Below are positions 1-6,294 of a stretch of DNA of 6,393 bases, one piece after another (positions within the stretch are counted from its first letter, which is position 1; every line of letters starts with the position of its first letter). Made by a program: the position numbers and the translations under genes. The notes beneath the pieces were generated by a model. The model was given only the letters and a program-made list of their open reading frames with translations. It was not told where the DNA came from and made no database searches. The DNA lies in the IMG/VR virus record IMGVR_UViG_2576861133_000006. One strand, 5' to 3'. The stretch is from a virus (taxonomy: Duplodnaviria > Heunggongvirae > Uroviricota > Caudoviricetes).

Positions 1-268
1 CCACCCATGCCAGCGCCTTATCACGCTCAATGGCGTTAACCCGGTCGCATTTTTCCTTCGACAACTTCATGCCCGGAACGACAGGTTTGCCATCCACCAG
101 GATGGCACCGCGGCAGATGGTCCAGATACCCGCGCCATCACGGTATGCCGTGGTGTGGTTACCTTCCTTTTCATCCAGAAACTGGTCGAGAATGTCAGGC
201 GCAGGCGCACCAGCGGCAATCAGCGCCAGAACGGCAGCCGACAGGCCGTATCTGATTTTTGCGTTCAT
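1..268 (-). CDS. Phage endolysin, GH24 lysozyme family, with SAR-like N-terminus; 5' partial (first 89 codons, gene continues past window start)
   Basis: Minus-strand translation from ATG at 268..266: MNAKIRYGLSAAVLALIAAGAPAPDILDQFLDEKEGNHTTAYRDGAGIWTICRGAILVDGKPVVPGMKLSKEKCDRVNAIERDKALAWV. The weakly hydrophobic Ala/Gly/Leu-rich N-terminus followed by a lysozyme-like core is the pattern of signal-arrest-release endolysins. An in-frame stop lies 2 codons upstream (277..275), so 268 is the start. No obvious Shine-Dalgarno. Absent from the ORF track only because it runs off the window. Confidence 0.8.
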   Translation of the reverse strand, partial: MNAKIRYGLSAAVLALIAAGAPAPDILDQFLDEKEGNHTTAYRDGAGIWTICRGAILVDGKPVVPGMKLSKEKCDRVNAIERDKALAWV

Positions 269-373
269 GGATATTTATCAGGATTTATCGGTTTCTGAGC
301 CCTGGATATGTTTATCAGTTCCAGCCTGTTGCCTCAGGCTGCTAACAGGTCAATACAATCATGAGGATTATTT
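269..373. promoter_or_regulatory. Divergent intergenic region between endolysin and antisense ORF, with direct repeats and nested palindrome
   Basis: Direct repeats GGATAT(G)TTTATCAG at 269-281 and 304-318, with a third ATTTATCG copy at 283-290. Nested inverted repeats CAGCCTG(322-328)/CAGGCTG(335-341) and CCTGTT(325-330)/AACAGG(344-349). A GAGGA Shine-Dalgarno at 363-367 sits 6 nt before the ATG at 374. No confident -35/-10 could be placed. Confidence 0.3.
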
Positions 374-646
374 ATGGACAATAACACCATTTCTCTACAG
401 GAGTTGCTCGACAGCATTTCCAGGCTTCGGGAAGACGTGAATACCCTTACCGTCGCCTTCTCATATCTGGCATTCTCAATTCCAAGGGAACAGATGCAAT
501 CAACGCTGGCATCAATCCAGTTTGAATCATGCAATCCCAAATGGTCTCAGGAACAACAAGACTCTTTCAGGCGGCTTGCTGTATTACTGGATGAAAAATA
601 TGCTGGTAAAATTACCATTTCGGCGGACTCTTCAGAGAACCCGTAA
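374..646 (+). CDS. Hypothetical protein, 90 aa, antisense to the lysis cassette
   Basis: ORF with ATG start and strong SD (GAGGA, 6-nt spacer). Product MDNNTISLQELLDSISRLREDVNTLTVAFSYLAFSIPREQ... has no recognisable motif. The 3' end overlaps the convergent DUF1327 gene by 35 bp (612-646). Chosen over the minus-strand 68-aa ORF 334..540, which starts with TTG and lacks an SD. Confidence 0.4.
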   Translation: MDNNTISLQELLDSISRLREDVNTLTVAFSYLAFSIPREQMQSTLASIQFESCNPKWSQEQQDSFRRLAVLLDEKYAGKITISADSSENP

Positions 647-1208
647 TTATTCCCGGTAGTTTTCCTCTGTAGGTTATCAACACATCCTGCGCCTCTAAAA
701 TTACGGGGCGCTTTTCCGGCGACTGCTCATCCCCTTCACATAACCCGGCAGCAACATCCAGGAAGACCTGTCTGATGCTCCTTCTGGCTGCTGCCTCATA
801 AAACTCCAGCGCGGCACCTTCAACACGGTCCAGCGAGATGTCCAGGTCAAAAATTTCACCGTCAAAGCGTTTTTTGTCCCGTAACGCTAAAGTTACCGTA
901 ACTTTATTCTCAAAATTGCGGATCCCTTTCACAATCAACTGCGCCTCTAAAATTACGGGGCGCTTTTCCGGCGACTGCTCATCCCCTTCACATAACCCGG
1001 CAGCAACATCCAGGAAGACCTGTCTGATGCTCCTTCTGGCTGCTGCCTCATAAAACTCCAGCGCGGCACCTTCAACACGGTCCAGCGAGATGTCCAGGTC
1101 AAAAATTTCACCGTCAAAGCGTTTTTTGTCCCGTAACGCTAAAGTTACCGTAACTTTATTCTCAAAATTGCGGATCCCTTTCACAATCAGTTCATAGTTT
1201 TGAGTCAT
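612..1208 (-). CDS. DUF1327/YdfR-like lysis-cassette protein carrying an in-frame tandem duplication (198 aa; about 114 aa without the duplication)
   Basis: ATG at 1208..1206 preceded by GGAGA SD, 4 nt after the pinholin stop. The N-terminus MTQNYELIVKGIRNFENKVTVT... resembles, from memory, E. coli Qin prophage YdfR (DUF1327), which likewise lies between holin and lysozyme. Residues 7-90 are repeated as 91-174. Confidence 0.65.
   Translation of the reverse strand: MTQNYELIVKGIRNFENKVTVTLALRDKKRFDGEIFDLDISLDRVEGAALEFYEAAARRSIRQVFLDVAAGLCEGDEQSPEKRPVILEAQLIVKGIRNFENKVTVTLALRDKKRFDGEIFDLDISLDRVEGAALEFYEAAARRSIRQVFLDVAAGLCEGDEQSPEKRPVILEAQDVLITYRGKLPGIITGSLKSPPKW
687..1190. repeat. Near-perfect tandem direct duplication, 2 x 252 bp (687-938 and 939-1190), in frame within the DUF1327 gene
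   Basis: Direct comparison of the two copies: 251 of 252 positions identical. The only difference is 938 (a) versus 1190 (g), a synonymous TTG/CTG Leu change. 252 is a multiple of 3, so the frame is preserved. Confidence 0.95.
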
Positions 1209-1212
1209 TGAA

Positions 1213-1428
1213 TTACTCTCCCCGTGCAGCCTTACGACGGTCCTCTCTGATTTTGAAATACAGGTTAGTCAGATATGTCAGCAGCCCAAACAGCAGACTC
1301 CCCAGCACGCCTATTGCCGCCCACTGAGACGGGGAAACCCTGTCCAGCAACTGCAGGAACCAGTAGCCCGTTCCCACCGCTGACGTGGTGTATGACACAC
1401 CTGTTGTGATTTTTTCCATCTGGTACAT
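1213..1428 (-). CDS. Class II holin, S21-type pinholin, with dual-start motif (71-aa form from 1428, 68-aa form from 1419)
   Basis: Translation [71 protein letters not shown]: two predicted TM segments and a charged C-terminus, closely resembling phage 21 S21 as I recall it. Two in-frame ATGs 3 codons apart (1428 and 1419). GGGAGA SD 6 nt upstream of 1428. The ORF-track start at 1506 is rejected because the upstream extension covers the terminator hairpin. Confidence 0.8.
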
Positions 1429-1460: not shown

Positions 1461-1493
1461 AATAAAAAAAGCCACCAGTTAAGTACTGATGGC
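1461..1493 (-). terminator. Rho-independent terminator between the esterase gene and the pinholin gene
   Basis: Minus-strand RNA: 8-bp stem GCCAUCAG/CUGGUGGC (one G.U pair), 7-nt loop UACUUAA, then UUUUUUUAUU. Plus-strand coordinates: stem 1471-1478 and 1486-1493, A-tract 1461-1470. Confidence 0.55.
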
Positions 1494-1578
1494 TCTGATA
1501 ACTCATGCAGGCATCTCAGACGACCCACTGACACTACCGGTGAGTTTAACGATACCTTCCATTTGACTGGCTCACTTT

Positions 1579-3450
1579 TTATGATGATGCCGGTGCATTT
1601 ATCTCCAGCACCAGACTTTCTATCTCAACGCCATACGTTGCATTTTTGGTAATATCCGTCAGCGTCAGCGCATTCAGCCCCAGTGTCAGACTGTCTTTTA
1701 TGACCTGGAATGCCGGGCCAGCCACTCCATTCAGTTTCGGAGTAACCGTGGCACTGCCGGCGGTGAACACCAGCTCCAGCGTCTGCCAGTCGTTACTGTA
1801 ATTCCCGAACTCGCCCAACTTTGTGTTTCCTGCTTTCCTGTGATGCATCAGATTCAGTTTGCCGTCTGTGGTCTGGGTGAAGAACGACATCAGGAACGGG
1901 TTACCAGTCCCGGTCATCGCCACGACGTCAGGTAACGCTACATCGGTACACAGATAAATTCCCAGACCGAACTGGTTGTTGGTCAGTGCGCCTGACAGTC
2001 GAAACTTACAGCTCAGTCTGCCACCCCGTGTCAGCAGGGAGACTGCGTCATCCACCGGATGCATCAGGGACCAAGTTTTATTGCTCTGCTTGGTAACCTT
2101 AAACACACCATCTTCCAGCGCAACACTGCCGCCGGTGATGGTCCAGCCCTGCGCAGCAGCCTCTCCGGCTGTCGGCAGCAGGGAGACTGTACGAACGGAT
2201 GTGTCACCATCAGACGGCCCCGATGGAGTGTCGCCGCCGGGCGAGGGTTTGATTTCCGGTGCCTTACCACTAATGAAGGCTAAGGTGCGACCGGCTACGT
2301 TCAGAATAGCAGTTGCCATACGATCGGGAATAATGCCACGACGCGCCCATGAGCTGAAATGCGTCGGGCGATTTGATGATACCCAGTTTTTGTTCGTTCG
2401 GGATGCCGAACCGTAATAACCAGACCCGGCAATATCAGGATCTTCTGACGGGTTGTTTGTCGGTGTATTAACTCCGCTACCATCGGTCATAAAGGGAACA
2501 AAATAAATCTGCTGGGATTCTTTACCTTTATATGCACCATATACCACTTCATATTGCGTACCGTGTTCTTGTTTCCACGCGTATGTCGTGTCGCCACAAA
2601 TCCAGGGGACTGATGCCGGACTTCCACCGTGACACTGCGCCGCCAGCCCGGCAAGGTCAGCACGGAACTGCTGTACCATTGCAAGAAATGCTGCTGGCTG
2701 CTGGGCGTAACTGGCATTCGTCATATCGAATTCCCCCTGCATCCAGCATATCGCCAGCAAAACGTTTTTCGGGTTTTTCTGCAATGCTGCCTTCGTGCGG
2801 AAAAGCAGATCCTGATATAACGGCTTACCCACTCCCCAGCGAGCCGAATCCTGACTGGCCCCCGTGGACTCGCTGAATGTCCCCTCCGTGCCCTGGGTGA
2901 ATGCCGAACCACCACGACAGCATGGTACCAGCAGGATCCCCGCATTATTAGGGATATACGGAAGCAGTTTTTTGGCAATATGTAAGCCCTGTCCGACACA
3001 GCCGTACTGCCCTTTGCTCAGGTCAGCCCGGGGATGGTTAATCGTACTCATATCCTGAACATCATGCAGACAATGGTCAGCAGGAATGATGTCGTTAAAT
3101 ACGCATACTTCACCACCGGGAGTCACTGTGTTACGACGGGCCAGTTGCTTAATGCGCGGATGGGGCGCATCGTATGAATCCGGAAGCGGAAGCCCTTCAC
3201 CGTAAGCCATGGCATTGGATTGCCCGGCCAGTACGATGACGTAGTACCACTCCGGCTCAGTTGCACCACTGACGACCACATCACCTTCTGCTGCAATCGC
3301 CTGCATCAGGGTATAAGGGGTTATGGCCACCGGACTACCAAACGGCTGCCAGCCCTCTTTCAGTTTATGTGTCAGCTTTTCCGCAAGATCTGACGGCGAC
3401 GCCGCCCTGACAACATCATAGTGTTTAAATGCCATGGTTCTTTCCACCAT
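1579..3450 (-). CDS. nanS: Prophage-type sialate O-acetylesterase (NanS-p-like): N-terminal DUF1737-like region, SASA esterase core, C-terminal beta-rich domain
   Basis: 623-aa ORF. N-terminus MAFKHYDVVRAASPSDLAEKLTHKLKEGWQPFGSPVAITPYTLMQ is DUF1737-like. It is followed by VIVLAGQSNAMAYG, a GDSL/SGNH-type GQSN catalytic-serine block typical of sialic-acid-specific acetylesterases. The position upstream of the lysis genes matches NanS-p of EHEC prophages. The start may instead be the ATG at 3435 (MAFKHY...), which has a slightly better upstream purine-rich tract. Confidence 0.75.
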   Translation of the reverse strand: MVERTMAFKHYDVVRAASPSDLAEKLTHKLKEGWQPFGSPVAITPYTLMQAIAAEGDVVVSGATEPEWYYVIVLAGQSNAMAYGEGLPLPDSYDAPHPRIKQLARRNTVTPGGEVCVFNDIIPADHCLHDVQDMSTINHPRADLSKGQYGCVGQGLHIAKKLLPYIPNNAGILLVPCCRGGSAFTQGTEGTFSESTGASQDSARWGVGKPLYQDLLFRTKAALQKNPKNVLLAICWMQGEFDMTNASYAQQPAAFLAMVQQFRADLAGLAAQCHGGSPASVPWICGDTTYAWKQEHGTQYEVVYGAYKGKESQQIYFVPFMTDGSGVNTPTNNPSEDPDIAGSGYYGSASRTNKNWVSSNRPTHFSSWARRGIIPDRMATAILNVAGRTLAFISGKAPEIKPSPGGDTPSGPSDGDTSVRTVSLLPTAGEAAAQGWTITGGSVALEDGVFKVTKQSNKTWSLMHPVDDAVSLLTRGGRLSCKFRLSGALTNNQFGLGIYLCTDVALPDVVAMTGTGNPFLMSFFTQTTDGKLNLMHHRKAGNTKLGEFGNYSNDWQTLELVFTAGSATVTPKLNGVAGPAFQVIKDSLTLGLNALTLTDITKNATYGVEIESLVLEINAPASS

Positions 3451-3695: not shown

Positions 3696-4031
3696 ATGAA
3701 GTGGATTGTGATTGATACAGTTATCCAGCCATCATGCGGAATATCTTTTTCAGTCATATGGAGTAAAATAAAATTAATAATCTGGTATCAATCGGATGCT
3801 TTCTTACCTCCTGAAAGTATATTTACACTGACTCACACAGGCATCATGCTCAATAACAAAGTGCTACCTGTAACCATTTACAACGTAGTACCATTCAATA
3901 AAACATTCTGGAATTTAATCAAAAACAGCCAGGAATGCCCTACAAATACAGATAACGTATTGAATGAATGCTTTAATAACCGTTGCACTCTGCAAATATG
4001 TCCTTATGGACTAAAACAACAAAGTCCATAA
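3696..4031 (+). CDS. Hypothetical protein, 111 aa, AT-rich cargo gene opposite to late transcription
   Basis: ATG with AAGGA SD 6 nt upstream. Very AT-rich coding sequence with six ATA codons. Product [32 protein letters not shown]... has four Cys in the last 31 residues and no recognisable motif. Confidence 0.35.
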
Positions 4032-4049: not shown

Positions 4050-4087
4050 ACAAAATCAATATAAACAGCCCCTCCGGAGAGGGGCTG
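4050..4087 (-). terminator. GC-rich hairpin followed by a U-rich tract on the minus strand (putative intrinsic terminator)
   Basis: 9-bp perfect stem CAGCCCCTC(4066-4074)/GAGGGGCTG(4079-4087) with loop CGGA. The minus-strand transcript continues UUUAUAUUGAUUUUGU; on the plus strand the hairpin is followed by GAGAGUGGCG, with no U-tract. It lies 35 nt past the stop of the 111-aa ORF. Confidence 0.4.
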
Positions 4088-4478
4088 GAGAGTGGCGCTA
4101 TGTGCCATTGCATGGTGCCGGGTGCCTCCCGGTGAATTCAGTACCAGCACCTGAATCCGCGATTATCCCATATACCTACTCGCTGATTGCCCCTCCGCAC
4201 AGGGGGATTCACCATGCCAGTTTCTTTTAACAAACTCCCCGCAAACCAGACAACAATCAACCGCCTGAATTGTGAAGTATTTAAAAATTTCTCCCGCTAA
4301 CTGATACCCGGCTAACAGTCTGGCGTTTTCTTTTTCAGCAACGGGAAAGCAACAACCACCACACCCGCCACCAGCACACCGTCAGCCAGCACTGACATTA
4401 TCCGGCTGCAGCAATGCCATTCACAAAAACAGTAAGCAATCACTTTTTACCGTAACCGGTGATAATCCAGATATGTAT

Positions 4479-4942: not shown

Positions 4943-5019
4943 TGGCGCGCTGTACTGGATTCGAACCAGTGACCGATTGCTTAGAAGGCAATTGCTCTGT
5001 CCGGCTGAGCTAACAACGC
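4943..5019 (-). tRNA. tRNA-Arg, anticodon UCU, 77 nt (phage argO/argU-like)
   Basis: Minus-strand sequence GCGTTGTTAGCTCAGCCGGACAGAGCAATTGCCTTCTAAGCAATCGGTCACTGGTTCGAATCCAGTACAGCGCGCCA. Acceptor stem GCGTTGT/ACAGCGC (one G.U), D stem GCTC/GAGC, anticodon stem ATTGC/GCAAT with loop CTTCTAA, T arm ACTGG-TTCGAAT-CCAGT, encoded CCA. Confidence 0.9.
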
Positions 5020-5119: not shown

Positions 5120-5195
5120 TGGTGGCCCTTGCTGGATTTGAACCAGCGACCTGGCGATTATGAGTCGCTCGCTCTCACCACTGAGCTAAAGGGCC
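5120..5195 (-). tRNA. tRNA with CAU anticodon, 76 nt; most likely tRNA-Ile2 (lysidine type, ileX/ileZ-like) rather than tRNA-Met
   Basis: Minus-strand sequence GGCCCTTTAGCTCAGTGGTGAGAGCGAGCGACTCATAATCGCCAGGTCGCTGGTTCAAATCCAGCAAGGGCCACCA. Perfect acceptor stem GGCCCTT/AAGGGCC, anticodon loop CTCATAA, T arm GCTGG-TTCAAAT-CCAGC, encoded CCA. Very close to E. coli ileX as I recall it. Confidence 0.9.
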
Positions 5196-5244: not shown

Positions 5245-6294
5245 TCAAACGATTAAACCCTGAACTTCCCTGACTGTCTGCTCAAAACGTCCGGTCTCCA
5301 GCTCAACGCCAATCGCACGACGCCCGAGCGCCAGTGCCGCTTTTACCGTTGAACCTGAGCCCATAAAAAAATCTGCAACCAGGTCACCCGGACGACTGCT
5401 TGCGCTGATTATCTGCTGCAGCATTTCTGCCGGTTTTTCGCACGGATGTTTCCCGGGATAGAACTGCACCGGTTTATGTGTCCACACATCCGTGTACGGC
5501 ACCTGCGCCGTCACACCAAAATACCGCCGCAGATGCTTATATTCACTCTGCAGCTCCACATACTGCCGGTTCAGTGACGTATACGTATCCACCAGCTGGT
5601 GGTGGGGCTTTTCCAGTTCACCGCGCTGATGTTTCTCTTCTGCCACCCGGGCAAACAGCGACTGTAATTTCAGATAATCGCTTTCGTTCGGTAGCTGCCA
5701 CTGACTGGCACTGAACCAGTGCGACACCATGTTTTTCTTTCCTGTGGCATCTGCAATCTGTTTTGCCGTTATCCCCAGGGCCGCGCGCGCATCACGAAAG
5801 TAAGAAATCAGCGGGGCCATCACATGCTGTTTCAGTGCACTGCCCTTCGCCGCATACCCGGCATCTTTCGGACGATACGGCCCCTGATAATGTTCCGCGA
5901 ACAGAATGCGCTCTGTGGCGGGGAAATACGCCCGCAGGCTTTCCTTGTTGCATCCGTTCCAGCGTCCGGACGGCTTCGCCCAGATAATATGGTTCAGCAC
6001 ACTGAAGCGTTCACGCATCATGATTTCGATATCAGATGCCAGGCGATGACCACAGAACAGGTAAAGACTTCCGGCAGGTTTCAGCACCCGCCAGAACTGC
6101 GCCAGACACTGGTCCAGCCACTTCAGGTAATCATCGTCGCCCTTCCACTGGTTATCCCAGCCCTCAGGCTTCACTTTAAAGTACGGCGGGTCCGTGACTA
6201 TCAGGTCAACAGAATTTTCGGGTAACGACCGGATAAATTCCAGGCAGTCGGCGTTGATTAACTCACAACTGGATATTTTTACAGTATTAGCCAT
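5245..6294 (-). CDS. DNA methyltransferase, beta-class amino-MTase (N6-adenine or N4-cytosine), 349 aa
   Basis: DPPY catalytic motif near the N-terminus (LIVTDPPYF) and FxGxG SAM-binding motif near the C-terminus (DFFMGSGST). The order motif IV then motif I defines the beta class. In-frame stops immediately upstream of the ATG at 6294 fix the start. No restriction endonuclease partner is present in the window. Confidence 0.85.
   Translation of the reverse strand: MANTVKISSCELINADCLEFIRSLPENSVDLIVTDPPYFKVKPEGWDNQWKGDDDYLKWLDQCLAQFWRVLKPAGSLYLFCGHRLASDIEIMMRERFSVLNHIIWAKPSGRWNGCNKESLRAYFPATERILFAEHYQGPYRPKDAGYAAKGSALKQHVMAPLISYFRDARAALGITAKQIADATGKKNMVSHWFSASQWQLPNESDYLKLQSLFARVAEEKHQRGELEKPHHQLVDTYTSLNRQYVELQSEYKHLRRYFGVTAQVPYTDVWTHKPVQFYPGKHPCEKPAEMLQQIISASSRPGDLVADFFMGSGSTVKAALALGRRAIGVELETGRFEQTVREVQGLIV

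What the first reader, a model, noticed from the sequence alone, without database searches (positions are those of the whole stretch)
374..646. Antisense 90-aa ORF inside the lysis cassette
Lysis cassettes are usually tightly packed and co-directional, with holin and endolysin adjacent or separated only by small genes. Here 345 bp separate the DUF1327 stop from the endolysin start, and the gap holds a well-formed opposite-strand ORF with a strong SD that overlaps the DUF1327 3' end by 35 bp. Convergent transcription into the lysis genes could modulate lysis timing, or the product could be a lysogeny-expressed moron.
Basis: partly seen in the sequence, partly recalled or inferred. Interest (0 to 1): 0.55.

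Follow-up and report, generated by a model that had tools for sequence, protein, structure and literature searches.

The report
Reverse-oriented accessory gene in prophage lysis cassette
The opposite-strand 90-codon reading frame between the YdfR and endolysin genes is a real, conserved small protein gene, an add-on ("moron") cassette of unknown function found in about a fifth of complete E. coli genomes, and not an antisense regulator of lysis.

Summary
It is a genuine protein gene. Eleven homologues down to 57% identity keep the frame open with dN/dS 0.1-0.36, and every other frame has stops. PGAP annotates it as a hypothetical protein (UniRef name Ybl58), and it matches PHROG 2411 full-length. 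It has no Pfam, NCBIfam or PADLOC match and no fold relative. AlphaFold gives an acidic three-helix protein with a disordered tail.

It is accessory. Closely related cassettes (K-12 Qin, H-19B, Stx phages) join ydfR to the endolysin directly, and window 313-620 is replaced there by 15 bp. It looks like a moron:
- lower GC than its flanks;
- a conserved -10-like box;
- a conserved leader;
- a terminator-like hairpin inside ydfR.

Relatives lie on the opposite strand in tail operons of other prophages. Others sit next to iha, next to plasmid autotransporter genes, and as a core Serratia gene between dinI and bssS.

In every prophage examined it converges on a late-strand gene whose product ends in a shared "KITGSL..P" tail. 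Function is unknown. The moron reading is supported; the lysis-timing antisense reading is not.

The parts
374..646 (+). 90-aa ORF (PGAP hypothetical protein WP_000369850.1; UniRef name Ybl58; PHROG 2411). Predicted acidic cytoplasmic three-helix protein with a disordered C-terminal tail (residues 81-90).
   Evidence: for the ORF and its names; dN/dS 0.1-0.36, no stops in 11 of 11 homologues; pLDDT 81.9, helices 8-35, 38-51 and 59-76.
363..367 (+). Shine-Dalgarno sequence GAGGA, 6 nt upstream of the ATG
   Evidence: Sequence. Conserved as (A/G)AGGA in all aligned homologous loci.
284..312 (+). Candidate promoter: weak -35-like TTTATC (284-289), 17-nt spacer, -10-like TATGTT (307-312) preceded by CCCTGG (300-305)
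   Evidence: The CCCTGG(A/T)TATG(T/A)T box is conserved in E. coli, Citrobacter and Atlantibacter loci, although the proteins are only 38-60% identical. It falls below the threshold of the consensus scan. No transcript data.
318..350 (+). Leader element: box TTCCAGCC, a 7-bp hairpin CAGCCTG (322-328) / CAGGCTG (335-341), and motif GGCTGCTAAC (337-346). This is the E. coli version of the leader conserved in other prophages: TCAGCCC box, covarying hairpin, loop GGATGGCTGATTAAC.
   Evidence: (4 pairs with compensatory changes in hairpin 1). No Rfam family.
354..359 (+). Alternative -10-like box TACAAT (TATAAT in the iha-linked copy), with TTGCCT 19 nt upstream. It would give a nearly leaderless mRNA.
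   Evidence: Found only in the E. coli-type loci.
689..715 (+). Terminator-like hairpin GCGCCTC (689-695) / GGGGCGC (705-711) followed by TTTT, 43 nt after the ORF stop and inside ydfR codons. Repeated at 941-967 by the tandem duplication.
   Evidence: -12.3 kcal/mol, z -1.2 in the window. The homologous hairpin is stronger in the iha-linked copy, where ydfR is gone (L005, z -3.85). Analogous hairpins with T runs follow the ORF in L028 (z -4.08), L032, L010 and L027.
313..620 (.). Segment present here but replaced by 15 bp in ORF-less cassettes of the same type (Stx2a_WGPS2, H-19B and other Stx phages). It supplies the last two codons and the stop of ydfR.
612..719 (-). C-terminal tail module of YdfR (PEKRPVILEAQDVLITYRGKLPGIITGSLKSPPKW). 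It is the convergent partner of the ORF. Related tails end the ORF's convergent neighbour in every prophage locus with partner sequence examined; five loci match the ITGSL pattern exactly. K-12 Qin YdfR lacks it.
612..1208 (-). ydfR (DUF1327), here 198 aa because of a perfect 252-bp tandem duplication (687-1189). It is 114 aa in relatives.
1..268 (-). 5' part of the lysozyme (endolysin R / rrrQ-type) gene, start codon at 266-268
1213..1428 (-). Class II (S21-type) holin

Best explanation
The ORF is a real protein-coding accessory gene, a 'moron' cassette set in reverse orientation between ydfR and the endolysin gene of a lambdoid prophage.

Shown here:
- It encodes a conserved protein of about 90 aa under purifying selection.
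- The protein belongs to a small family restricted to Enterobacterales (PHROG 2411, 'Ybl58'), with no detectable relation to any characterised family or fold.
- It is predicted to be an acidic, soluble three-helix protein with a disordered tail.
- The gene is present or absent between otherwise near-identical lysis cassettes.
- Relatives occur on the opposite strand inside tail operons of other prophages, next to iha, next to plasmid autotransporter genes, and as a core gene between dinI and bssS in Serratia.

Inferred:
- It is transcribed from its own weak sigma-70-type promoter (-10 at 307-312) through a conserved structured leader.
- It is translated from a strong SD.
- Its transcript is terminated at a hairpin inside ydfR (689-715), so it does not reach the holin.
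- It can therefore be expressed in the lysogen, when the late operon is silent, and is probably shut off by head-on Q-antiterminated late transcription after induction.
- The product acts in trans by binding another protein, on behalf of the lysogen or the prophage, rather than as part of the lysis machinery.

The 35-nt overlap is a by-product of the arrangement. The ORF's dispensable, disordered tail and its 3' UTR and terminator share DNA with the last 35 or so codons of YdfR.
For: Coding:
- dN/dS is 0.1-0.36 and there are no stops in 11 of 11 homologues, while all other frames carry stops.
- The ORF is intact in 80 of 80 IMG/VR loci.
- PGAP annotates a CDS in every sampled genome.
- It matches PHROG 2411 at 1e-58 over 90 of 90 positions.

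Family:
- 126 clusters were found, all in Enterobacterales and 81-106 aa long.
- There is no Pfam, NCBIfam or PADLOC match.
- The AlphaFold2 model has pLDDT 81.9, three helices and a disordered tail.

Accessory status:
- The ORF is absent from K-12 Qin and from H-19B and the Stx phages.
- Window 313-620 is the indel.
- It is present in 1132 of 5426 complete E. coli genomes but in only 3 of 50,697 phage records.
- GC is 0.43-0.47 against 0.49-0.59 in the flanks.

Own signals:
- A -10-like box and leader are conserved across loci whose proteins are only 38-60% identical.
- Terminator-like hairpins follow the ORF in seven contexts, including the iha copy where ydfR has decayed.

Independence from lysis:
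- Tail-operon copies.
- Citrobacter copy upstream of a lambda-S-type holin.
- iha island and IncF plasmids.
- Serratia dinI-X-bssS.
- Copy retained where ydfR is reduced to a stub.
Against: - No transcript, TSS or protein evidence was available, and no paper mentions the gene.
- The promoter is only a conserved -10-like box with a poor -35, and it failed the consensus scan.
- In the window itself the leader hairpin and the terminator hairpin are no more stable than shuffled sequence (z about -1.2).
- The function is not established. Fold searches gave only generic helical matches.
- A minority of database entries are frameshifted, for example the 94-aa variants.
- The ORF is always paired with a tail-motif partner in prophages, which hints at a linkage that a simple 'independent moron' model does not explain.
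Confidence: 0.6

Rival explanations
1. The ORF and the late-strand gene it converges on form a functional two-gene module. The ORF protein is made in the lysogen, and the partner protein, which carries the KITGSL..P tail, is made from the late operon. They act on each other or on one process, for example an inhibitor/target pair or a lysogeny-ON / lysis-OFF switch. Mutual transcriptional interference and the 3' overlap would then be part of the design.
For: In every prophage context examined, the family member converges on and overlaps by 4-35 nt a late-strand gene. Five partner types from E. coli, Citrobacter, Atlantibacter and Yersinia match the ITGSL pattern outright:
- YdfR ...ITGSLKSPPKW
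- L010 ...KITGSLRAPIKL
- L027 ...KITGSLRVPMKL
- L023 ...QIFGDLKKPPSY
- L028 ...KITGSLFAPL...
A sixth, L032 ...KIYGELMKPVC, resembles it only loosely.

The N-terminal parts of these partners are unrelated, and the insertion sites differ (lysis cassette, upstream of a holin, TMP-M, M-L, after I). In L010 and L027 the motif lies downstream of the ORF stop, and in L023 and L032 it is kept at the peptide level with different codons. It is therefore selected in the partner's frame, not the ORF's.
Against: - Each gene occurs without the other. YdfR with the same tail exists in ORF-less Stx-phage cassettes.
- ORF relatives in Serratia, Sodalis, plasmids, the iha island and an IS110 context have no partner.
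- The ORF is retained where ydfR is a stub.
- The L034 and L035 partners have different tails.
- Common descent of one DNA segment (ORF plus 3' UTR), repeatedly fused to whatever late gene lies upstream, could produce the same pattern.
- No interaction was tested.
Confidence: 0.2
2. The element works as RNA. Convergent transcription or antisense RNA from the + strand lowers expression of ydfR, the holin or the endolysin and so sets lysis timing.
For: The orientation is convergent with the late operon and there is a 35-nt overlap with ydfR. Every prophage copy is opposite to the late genes. Head-on transcription must cause some interference.
Against: - Selection is on the protein: dN/dS is 0.1-0.36 in the ORF frame.
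- The family also lives where there are no lysis genes.
- The ORF lies downstream of the holin in the late transcript, and a terminator-like hairpin at 689-715 would end its RNA about 500 nt short of the holin.
- Many functional cassettes of the same type lack it.
Confidence: 0.1
3. It is a chance ORF, or a decaying pseudogene with no function.
For: Spurious antisense ORFs of similar or greater length occur elsewhere in the window. Some database copies are frameshifted or truncated. The protein has no recognisable domain.
Against: - Purifying selection and an open frame at up to saturating synonymous divergence.
- Homologues down to 24-30% identity of the same length across genera, including a core Serratia gene.
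- A confident AlphaFold model from a 45-sequence alignment.
- Intact clusters hold hundreds of members, against single digits for the frameshifted ones.
Confidence: 0.03

Closest known systems
Phage morons as defined for lambdoid phages (Juhala, Hendrix et al. 2000, cited from my own knowledge): an extra gene with its own promoter and terminator, inserted between two genes that are adjacent in related phages
   Same: - Present or absent at one junction between near-identical cassettes.
- Lower GC than its flanks.
- Own promoter-like and terminator-like signals.
- Sits in the late region.
- Found far more often in prophages than in isolated phages.
   Different: - Expression from the prophage has not been shown.
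- The terminator and 3' UTR are embedded in the coding sequence of the neighbouring late gene, so the cassette is fused to ydfR rather than cleanly intergenic.
Lambda bor (cited from my own knowledge): an opposite-strand gene at the end of the lambda lysis cassette, expressed in lysogens, encoding a serum-resistance lipoprotein
   Same: - A small gene on the strand opposite the late operon, in or next to the lysis cassette.
- The expected logic is 'on in the lysogen'.
   Different: - No sequence or fold relation.
- Bor is an exported lipoprotein, whereas this product has no signal peptide or transmembrane segment and is predicted to be a soluble helical bundle.
- Bor follows Rz, whereas this gene lies between ydfR and R.
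HK97 gp15 and phi80/N15 Cor (cited from my own knowledge): morons in tail-gene regions that give superinfection exclusion
   Same: Relatives of this ORF are inserted among tail genes: TMP-M, M-L and after I.
   Different: - Those are membrane proteins with a known exclusion function, and they run in the same direction as the tail genes.
- This family is soluble, reverse-oriented and untested.
- It has no PADLOC match.
PHROG 2411 / UniRef 'Ybl58' / PGAP hypothetical protein WP_000369850.1
   Same: Full-length match: 1e-58 over 90 of 90 profile positions. The exact sequence is already in public databases on at least 1000 contigs.
   Different: Nothing differs. The family is catalogued, but its function is unknown.
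Embedded antisense overlapping genes described in EHEC, for example nog1, asa and pop (cited from my own knowledge)
   Same: A protein-coding gene on the strand opposite to annotated genes.
   Different: Those lie wholly inside another gene's coding sequence. Here only the last 11 codons and the stop overlap ydfR, and 238 of 273 nt overlap nothing.

Membership tests
PHROG 2411 (phage protein family of unknown function; 'Ybl58') | Significant full-length match to the family profile | tested here: met
   E 1.1e-58, residues 1-90 on profile positions 1-90 of 90.
Moron (accessory transcription unit in a lambdoid late region) | Present between two genes that are adjacent in closely related phages | tested here: met
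   K-12 Qin, H-19B and the Stx1a/Stx2 phages join ydfR to R directly. Window 313-620 is the extra segment.
Moron (accessory transcription unit in a lambdoid late region) | Own promoter upstream | tested here: inconclusive
   A conserved -10-like TATGTT/TATGAT box lies at the same place in E. coli, Citrobacter and Atlantibacter loci. The -35 is poor, the consensus scan did not call it, and there are no TSS data.
Moron (accessory transcription unit in a lambdoid late region) | Own terminator downstream | tested here: inconclusive
   A hairpin with a T run lies 40-95 nt after the stop in seven contexts. It is significant in L005 and L028 (z -3.9 and -4.1) but not in the window (z -1.2). Loops are 9-12 nt, which is long for intrinsic terminators.
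Moron (accessory transcription unit in a lambdoid late region) | Base composition differs from its neighbours | tested here: met
   GC is 0.43-0.47 across 226-675, against 0.51-0.59 to the left and 0.49-0.55 to the right.
Moron (accessory transcription unit in a lambdoid late region) | Expressed from the repressed prophage | not testable with these tools
   No transcriptome or proteome data could be reached. Literature searches found nothing.
cis-antisense RNA regulator of lysis genes | Conservation is of the RNA or of the act of transcription, not of a reading frame | tested here: not met
   purifying selection specific to the ORF frame; the protein family is conserved down to 24-30% identity.
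cis-antisense RNA regulator of lysis genes | The transcript overlaps the regulated lysis gene (holin or endolysin) | tested here: inconclusive
   Only the ydfR 3' end is overlapped (612-646). A terminator-like hairpin at 689-715 precedes the holin at 1213-1428. The actual 3' end is not known.
Known anti-phage defence or toxin-antitoxin proteins | Match to a defence-system or toxin/antitoxin profile | tested here: not met
   (PADLOC, none at E up to 0.1). (Pfam, none for any of 45 members above noise).
Known structural folds (PDB, BFVD) | A specific fold match | tested here: not met

The most novel reading that the evidence does not exclude
The ORF may be half of a previously undescribed, mobile, convergent two-gene prophage module. 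The parts would be:
- a lysogen-expressed three-helix protein;
- its conserved, possibly pseudoknotted 5' leader (TCAGCC box, covarying hairpin, loop GGAUGGCUGAUUAA);
- a late-strand partner carrying the KITGSL..P tail, with the two genes overlapping at their 3' ends.

Such a module would act as a lysogeny-ON / lytic-OFF switch. For example, the ORF protein could neutralise or sense the partner-type protein of the resident phage or of incoming phages. The leader would provide RNA-level control.
Probability: 0.2. Interest if true: 0.6.

Novelty: new member of a known kind. Interest (0 to 1): 0.35.

Why it matters
The gene is carried by about one in five complete E. coli genomes, including clinical lineages and E. 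coli B. Relatives sit beside virulence genes (iha, plasmid autotransporters) and in the Serratia core genome, yet nothing is known about it.

Showing that it is a real, selected protein gene, and not a lysis-timing antisense RNA, removes a tempting misreading. It also defines a clean experimental target. The recurring convergent partner and the conserved leader are new observations. If they prove functional, they would add a new small regulatory or defence-type module to the repertoire of prophage accessory genes. As it stands, this is an ordinary kind of element (a moron) with an unknown cargo.

Tried and rejected
- Domain searches (Pfam, NCBIfam, PADLOC) found nothing for the ORF or for 45 family members.
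- A PDB sequence-profile search gave YibL at E 0.38, judged to be chance.
- An Rfam scan of the window and seven related loci found no family for the leader.
- Literature searches for ybl58, the WP accessions, DUF1327 and ydfR/essQ/rrrQ returned nothing relevant.
- I looked by eye for a LexA box upstream of the ORF, prompted by the dinI neighbour in Serratia. None fits CTGT-N8-ACAG in the window or upstream of the Serratia homologue.
- CsrA-site and sigma-54 readings of the leader motif were considered and dropped, because GGA is not universal and the spacing does not fit.
- An exact-motif scan of IMG/VR with GATGGCTGATTAAC was mostly chance hits. Only 3 of 120 were followed by a family member.
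- A genome-contig scan added only three loci, and a scan for the divergent type added one.
- The 63- and 71-aa partner proteins were tested for DUF1327 or PHROG membership and did not match.
- The idea that the iha-linked copy was an independent insertion was revised. Its homology extends into the first 23 nt or so of the lysozyme gene, so it is a prophage fragment.
- The idea that L013 lacks ydfR was revised. It keeps a 3' stub.

Full report
**What is in the window.**
The window is the late region of a lambdoid prophage, read on its minus strand. These features follow in order:
- a DNA methyltransferase (5245-6294);
- two tRNAs;
- an IraM-like gene on the + strand (3696-4031);
- a SASA/NanS-p-type esterase (1579-3450);
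- a class II S21-type holin (1213-1428);
- YdfR/DUF1327 (612-1208);
- the start of a lysozyme gene (start codon 266-268).

The reported ORF is on the + strand at 374-646. It is 90 aa long, with GAGGA 6 nt before the ATG. It overlaps the ydfR 3' end by 35 nt. The ydfR-lysozyme gap is 343 bp.

**Is it a gene?**
Length alone proves nothing, because the window holds longer spurious antisense ORFs. The evidence is comparative.
- I collected 11 homologous loci spanning 57-87% protein identity, from very different contexts.
- I computed Nei-Gojobori dN/dS over the 78 codons that overlap no other gene. The values are 0.08-0.36, with synonymous sites near saturation for the distant pairs.
- The frame is open in all 11, and every other frame carries stops.
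- PGAP annotates it as a hypothetical protein, WP_000369850.1, and UniRef calls it Ybl58.
- It matches PHROG 2411 end to end at 1e-58.
- All 80 IMG/VR loci retrieved have an intact 90-aa frame, although those were selected as the best matches.
- Frameshifted 94-aa variants exist, but their clusters hold a few members, against hundreds for the intact forms.

**The protein.**
The family is small and confined to Enterobacterales.
- It has 19 representatives among 1.84 billion 50%-identity clusters.
- A profile search returned 126 90%-identity clusters, 81-106 aa long.
- The conserved core is LL..I..L...(V/I)N.L..AF.YL.F ... ES.N ... F..LA.
- No member has a Pfam, NCBIfam or PADLOC match.

With a 45-sequence alignment, AlphaFold2 gives pLDDT 81.9. 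The model has three helices (8-35, 38-51, 59-76) and a disordered tail at 81-90. There is no signal peptide or membrane-length hydrophobic stretch, and the protein is acidic (read from the sequence). Fold and sequence searches against PDB and BFVD found only generic helical matches. Homology therefore gives no function.

**It is accessory, with moron anatomy.**
In K-12 Qin, ydfR overlaps rrrQ directly. In H-19B, the Stx1a phages and Stx2a_WGPS2, ydfR and R are 50 bp apart. Alignment places the difference at window 313-620. These 308 bp are replaced by 15 bp in the ORF-less cassettes, and they supply the last two codons and the stop of ydfR.

The ORF region has lower GC than its flanks, 0.43-0.47 against 0.49-0.59. 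The segment is present at 80% or more coverage in 1132 of 5426 complete E. coli genomes, but in only 3 of 50,697 phage records.

Upstream of the ATG, loci whose proteins are only 38-60% identical share these elements:
- a CCCTGG(A/T)TATG(T/A)T box, which is -10-like (window 307-312);
- a TCAGCC box;
- a hairpin with compensatory changes;
- a conserved GGATGGCTGATTAAC motif, set in a loop whose flanking stems differ between loci but stay complementary;
- the SD.

The E. coli version is shortened: its TCAGCC-type box pairs directly with GGCTG at 322-341.

Downstream, a hairpin followed by a T run lies 40-95 nt after the stop in seven contexts. The homologous hairpin is at its best in the iha-linked copy, where the ydfR frame has decayed. 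In the window it lies at 689-715, inside ydfR codons. None of these signals has experimental support. In the window itself the hairpins are no more stable than shuffled controls, and the consensus promoter scan did not call the promoter.

**Where relatives live.**

| Context | Loci |
|---|---|
| E. coli lysis cassettes of several prophages (Stx2k phage, DLP12-like, Rac of E. coli B, APEC O1) | L006-L009, L238 |
| P22-like prophage with ydfR reduced to a 3' stub but the ORF intact | L013-L015 |
| Citrobacter, between a 238-aa late gene and a lambda-S-type holin / CHAP endolysin / Rz | L027 |
| Atlantibacter, Yersinia and metagenomic prophages, on the opposite strand inside tail operons (TMP-M, M-L, after I) | L023, L024, L028, L032-L034 |
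| Next to iha in a chromosomal island; homology reaches into the first 23 nt or so of the lysozyme gene, so this is a prophage fragment | L005 |
| Downstream of an autotransporter gene on about 72 IncF plasmids | L004, L025 |
| Next to IS110 | L011 |
| Core chromosomal gene between dinI and bssS in Serratia species; chromosomal in Sodalis and others | L016-L022, L029-L031 |

The protein is therefore not tied to lysis.

**An unexpected regularity.**
In every prophage context examined, the family member converges on and overlaps by 4-35 nt a small late-strand gene. Most of these partners end in a related peptide:
- ...ITGSLKSPPKW (YdfR, window)
- ...KITGSLRAPIKL (L010)
- ...KITGSLRVPMKL (L027)
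- ...QIFGDLKKPPSY (L023)
- ...KITGSLFAPL... (L028)
- ...KIYGELMKPVC (L032)

The N-terminal parts are unrelated or are short LEERVxxLEK coiled coils. Only the first five fit the ITGSL pattern strictly. The L032 tail is a looser resemblance, and the L034 and L035 partners end differently.

K-12 YdfR lacks this tail. In some loci the motif lies beyond the ORF stop, and in others it is kept with different codons, so it is selected in the partner's frame. Non-phage copies have no partner.

Two explanations remain open. One is a functional pair. The other is common descent of one segment (ORF plus 3' UTR/terminator) that has repeatedly been fused to whatever late gene lies upstream.

The ORF-less Stx-phage junction keeps the -10 box, the TCAGCC-like box and a CAGCGGTGG string that matches the leader hairpin of the Atlantibacter locus. 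This suggests, by inference only, that those cassettes lost the ORF through a microhomology deletion.

**Mechanism.**
Best supported: this is a self-contained accessory gene whose product, a small acidic helical protein, acts in trans.
- Its orientation and signals predict expression while the late operon is silent.
- They predict termination inside ydfR.
- They predict suppression by head-on, Q-antiterminated late transcription after induction.

The 35-nt overlap involves only the protein's disordered, poorly conserved tail.

The antisense lysis-timing idea is not needed to explain any observation. It is disfavoured by the protein-level selection, by the non-lysis contexts and by the terminator-like element well short of the holin. 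A local effect on the ydfR 3' end cannot be excluded. The biochemical function remains unknown. The neighbourhoods are only hints: IraM in this window, dinI and bssS in Serratia, and virulence genes on plasmids and islands.

**Verdict.**
Two observations here are new and untested, the conserved convergent partner and the conserved leader, and they justify moderate interest.

Noticed in passing
window 687-1189 (- strand gene ydfR, 612-1208): A perfect 252-bp tandem duplication (2.0 copies, 100% identical) makes YdfR 198 aa, with two DUF1327 cores instead of one (114 aa). None of 76 IMG/VR loci with a readable ydfR has it, and neither do the best-matching complete E. coli genomes. It is either a very recent in-frame duplication or an assembly artefact.
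   Followed up: partly
window 4057-4246 (-): A full-length match to the Rfam sRNA family STnc100 (RF02076): 132 bits, against a gathering score of 47.
   Followed up: no
window 3696-4031 (+): A second opposite-strand gene in the late region. PGAP annotates the identical sequence as the anti-adapter protein IraM; Pfam found no match. It is another moron-like insertion, between the esterase gene and the tRNAs.
   Followed up: no
window 1468-1496 (-), and the holin at 1213-1506: A strong terminator-like hairpin with a T run lies just upstream of the annotated holin start (1428). It falls inside the longer 97-aa ORF, so the 71-aa holin annotation is the likely one. The hairpin may be a late-operon terminator that is read through under Q antitermination.
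   Followed up: no
window 4943-5019 and 5120-5195 (-): tRNA-Arg (TCT) and a tRNA with a CAT anticodon. PGAP calls the latter tRNA-Ile, which implies the lysidine-modified type. This is the usual rare-codon tRNA set upstream of the late genes in Stx-like prophages.
   Followed up: no
L023 5925-6003, L028 2914-2991, L032 905-975, L034 388-458, L035, L153, L011; window 318-350: A conserved leader lies upstream of family members in prophages. It has a TCAGCC box, a covarying hairpin, and a second hairpin whose 12-14-nt loop GGATGGCTGATTAA is nearly invariant and complementary to the TCAGCC box, so a pseudoknot is possible. There is no Rfam family. The same motif precedes a member that is only distantly related (hmmsearch E about 1e-9; L153, L150, L119).
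   Followed up: partly
L005 4033-4305 (next to iha); L004 4012-4281 and L025 4989-5267 (IncF plasmids): Homologues at 57-64% identity sit immediately downstream of the adhesin/siderophore receptor gene iha, and downstream of a large autotransporter gene on about 72 conjugative IncF plasmids. The iha copy still carries a scrap of the lysozyme 5' end and the ORF's terminator hairpin.
   Followed up: partly
L016-L021 6001-6285 (Serratia spp.): A 92-94-aa family member is a conserved chromosomal gene between dinI and bssS (pyrC-dinI-X-bssS-solA) in several Serratia species. dinI keeps its LexA box and terminator. The homologue has its own upstream region, without the phage-type leader.
   Followed up: partly
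L238 2531-2803 (E. coli B strain B-DolR, Rac remnant next to trkG): E. coli B carries an 86%-identical copy (essD-ydfR-ORF-lysozyme-Rz beside trkG). Existing REL606 and BL21 transcriptome and ribosome-profiling data could therefore test expression directly.
   Followed up: no
L003 1502-1561 (Stx2a_WGPS2 ydfR-R junction): The ORF-less junction keeps the -10-like box, a TCAGCC-like box and CAGCGGTGG, which matches the 5' arm of leader hairpin 1 in the Atlantibacter locus. In WGPS2 this string encodes the last codons of YdfR (PPLA*). The pattern looks like loss of the ORF by deletion between short repeats, not a primitive ORF-free state.
   Followed up: partly
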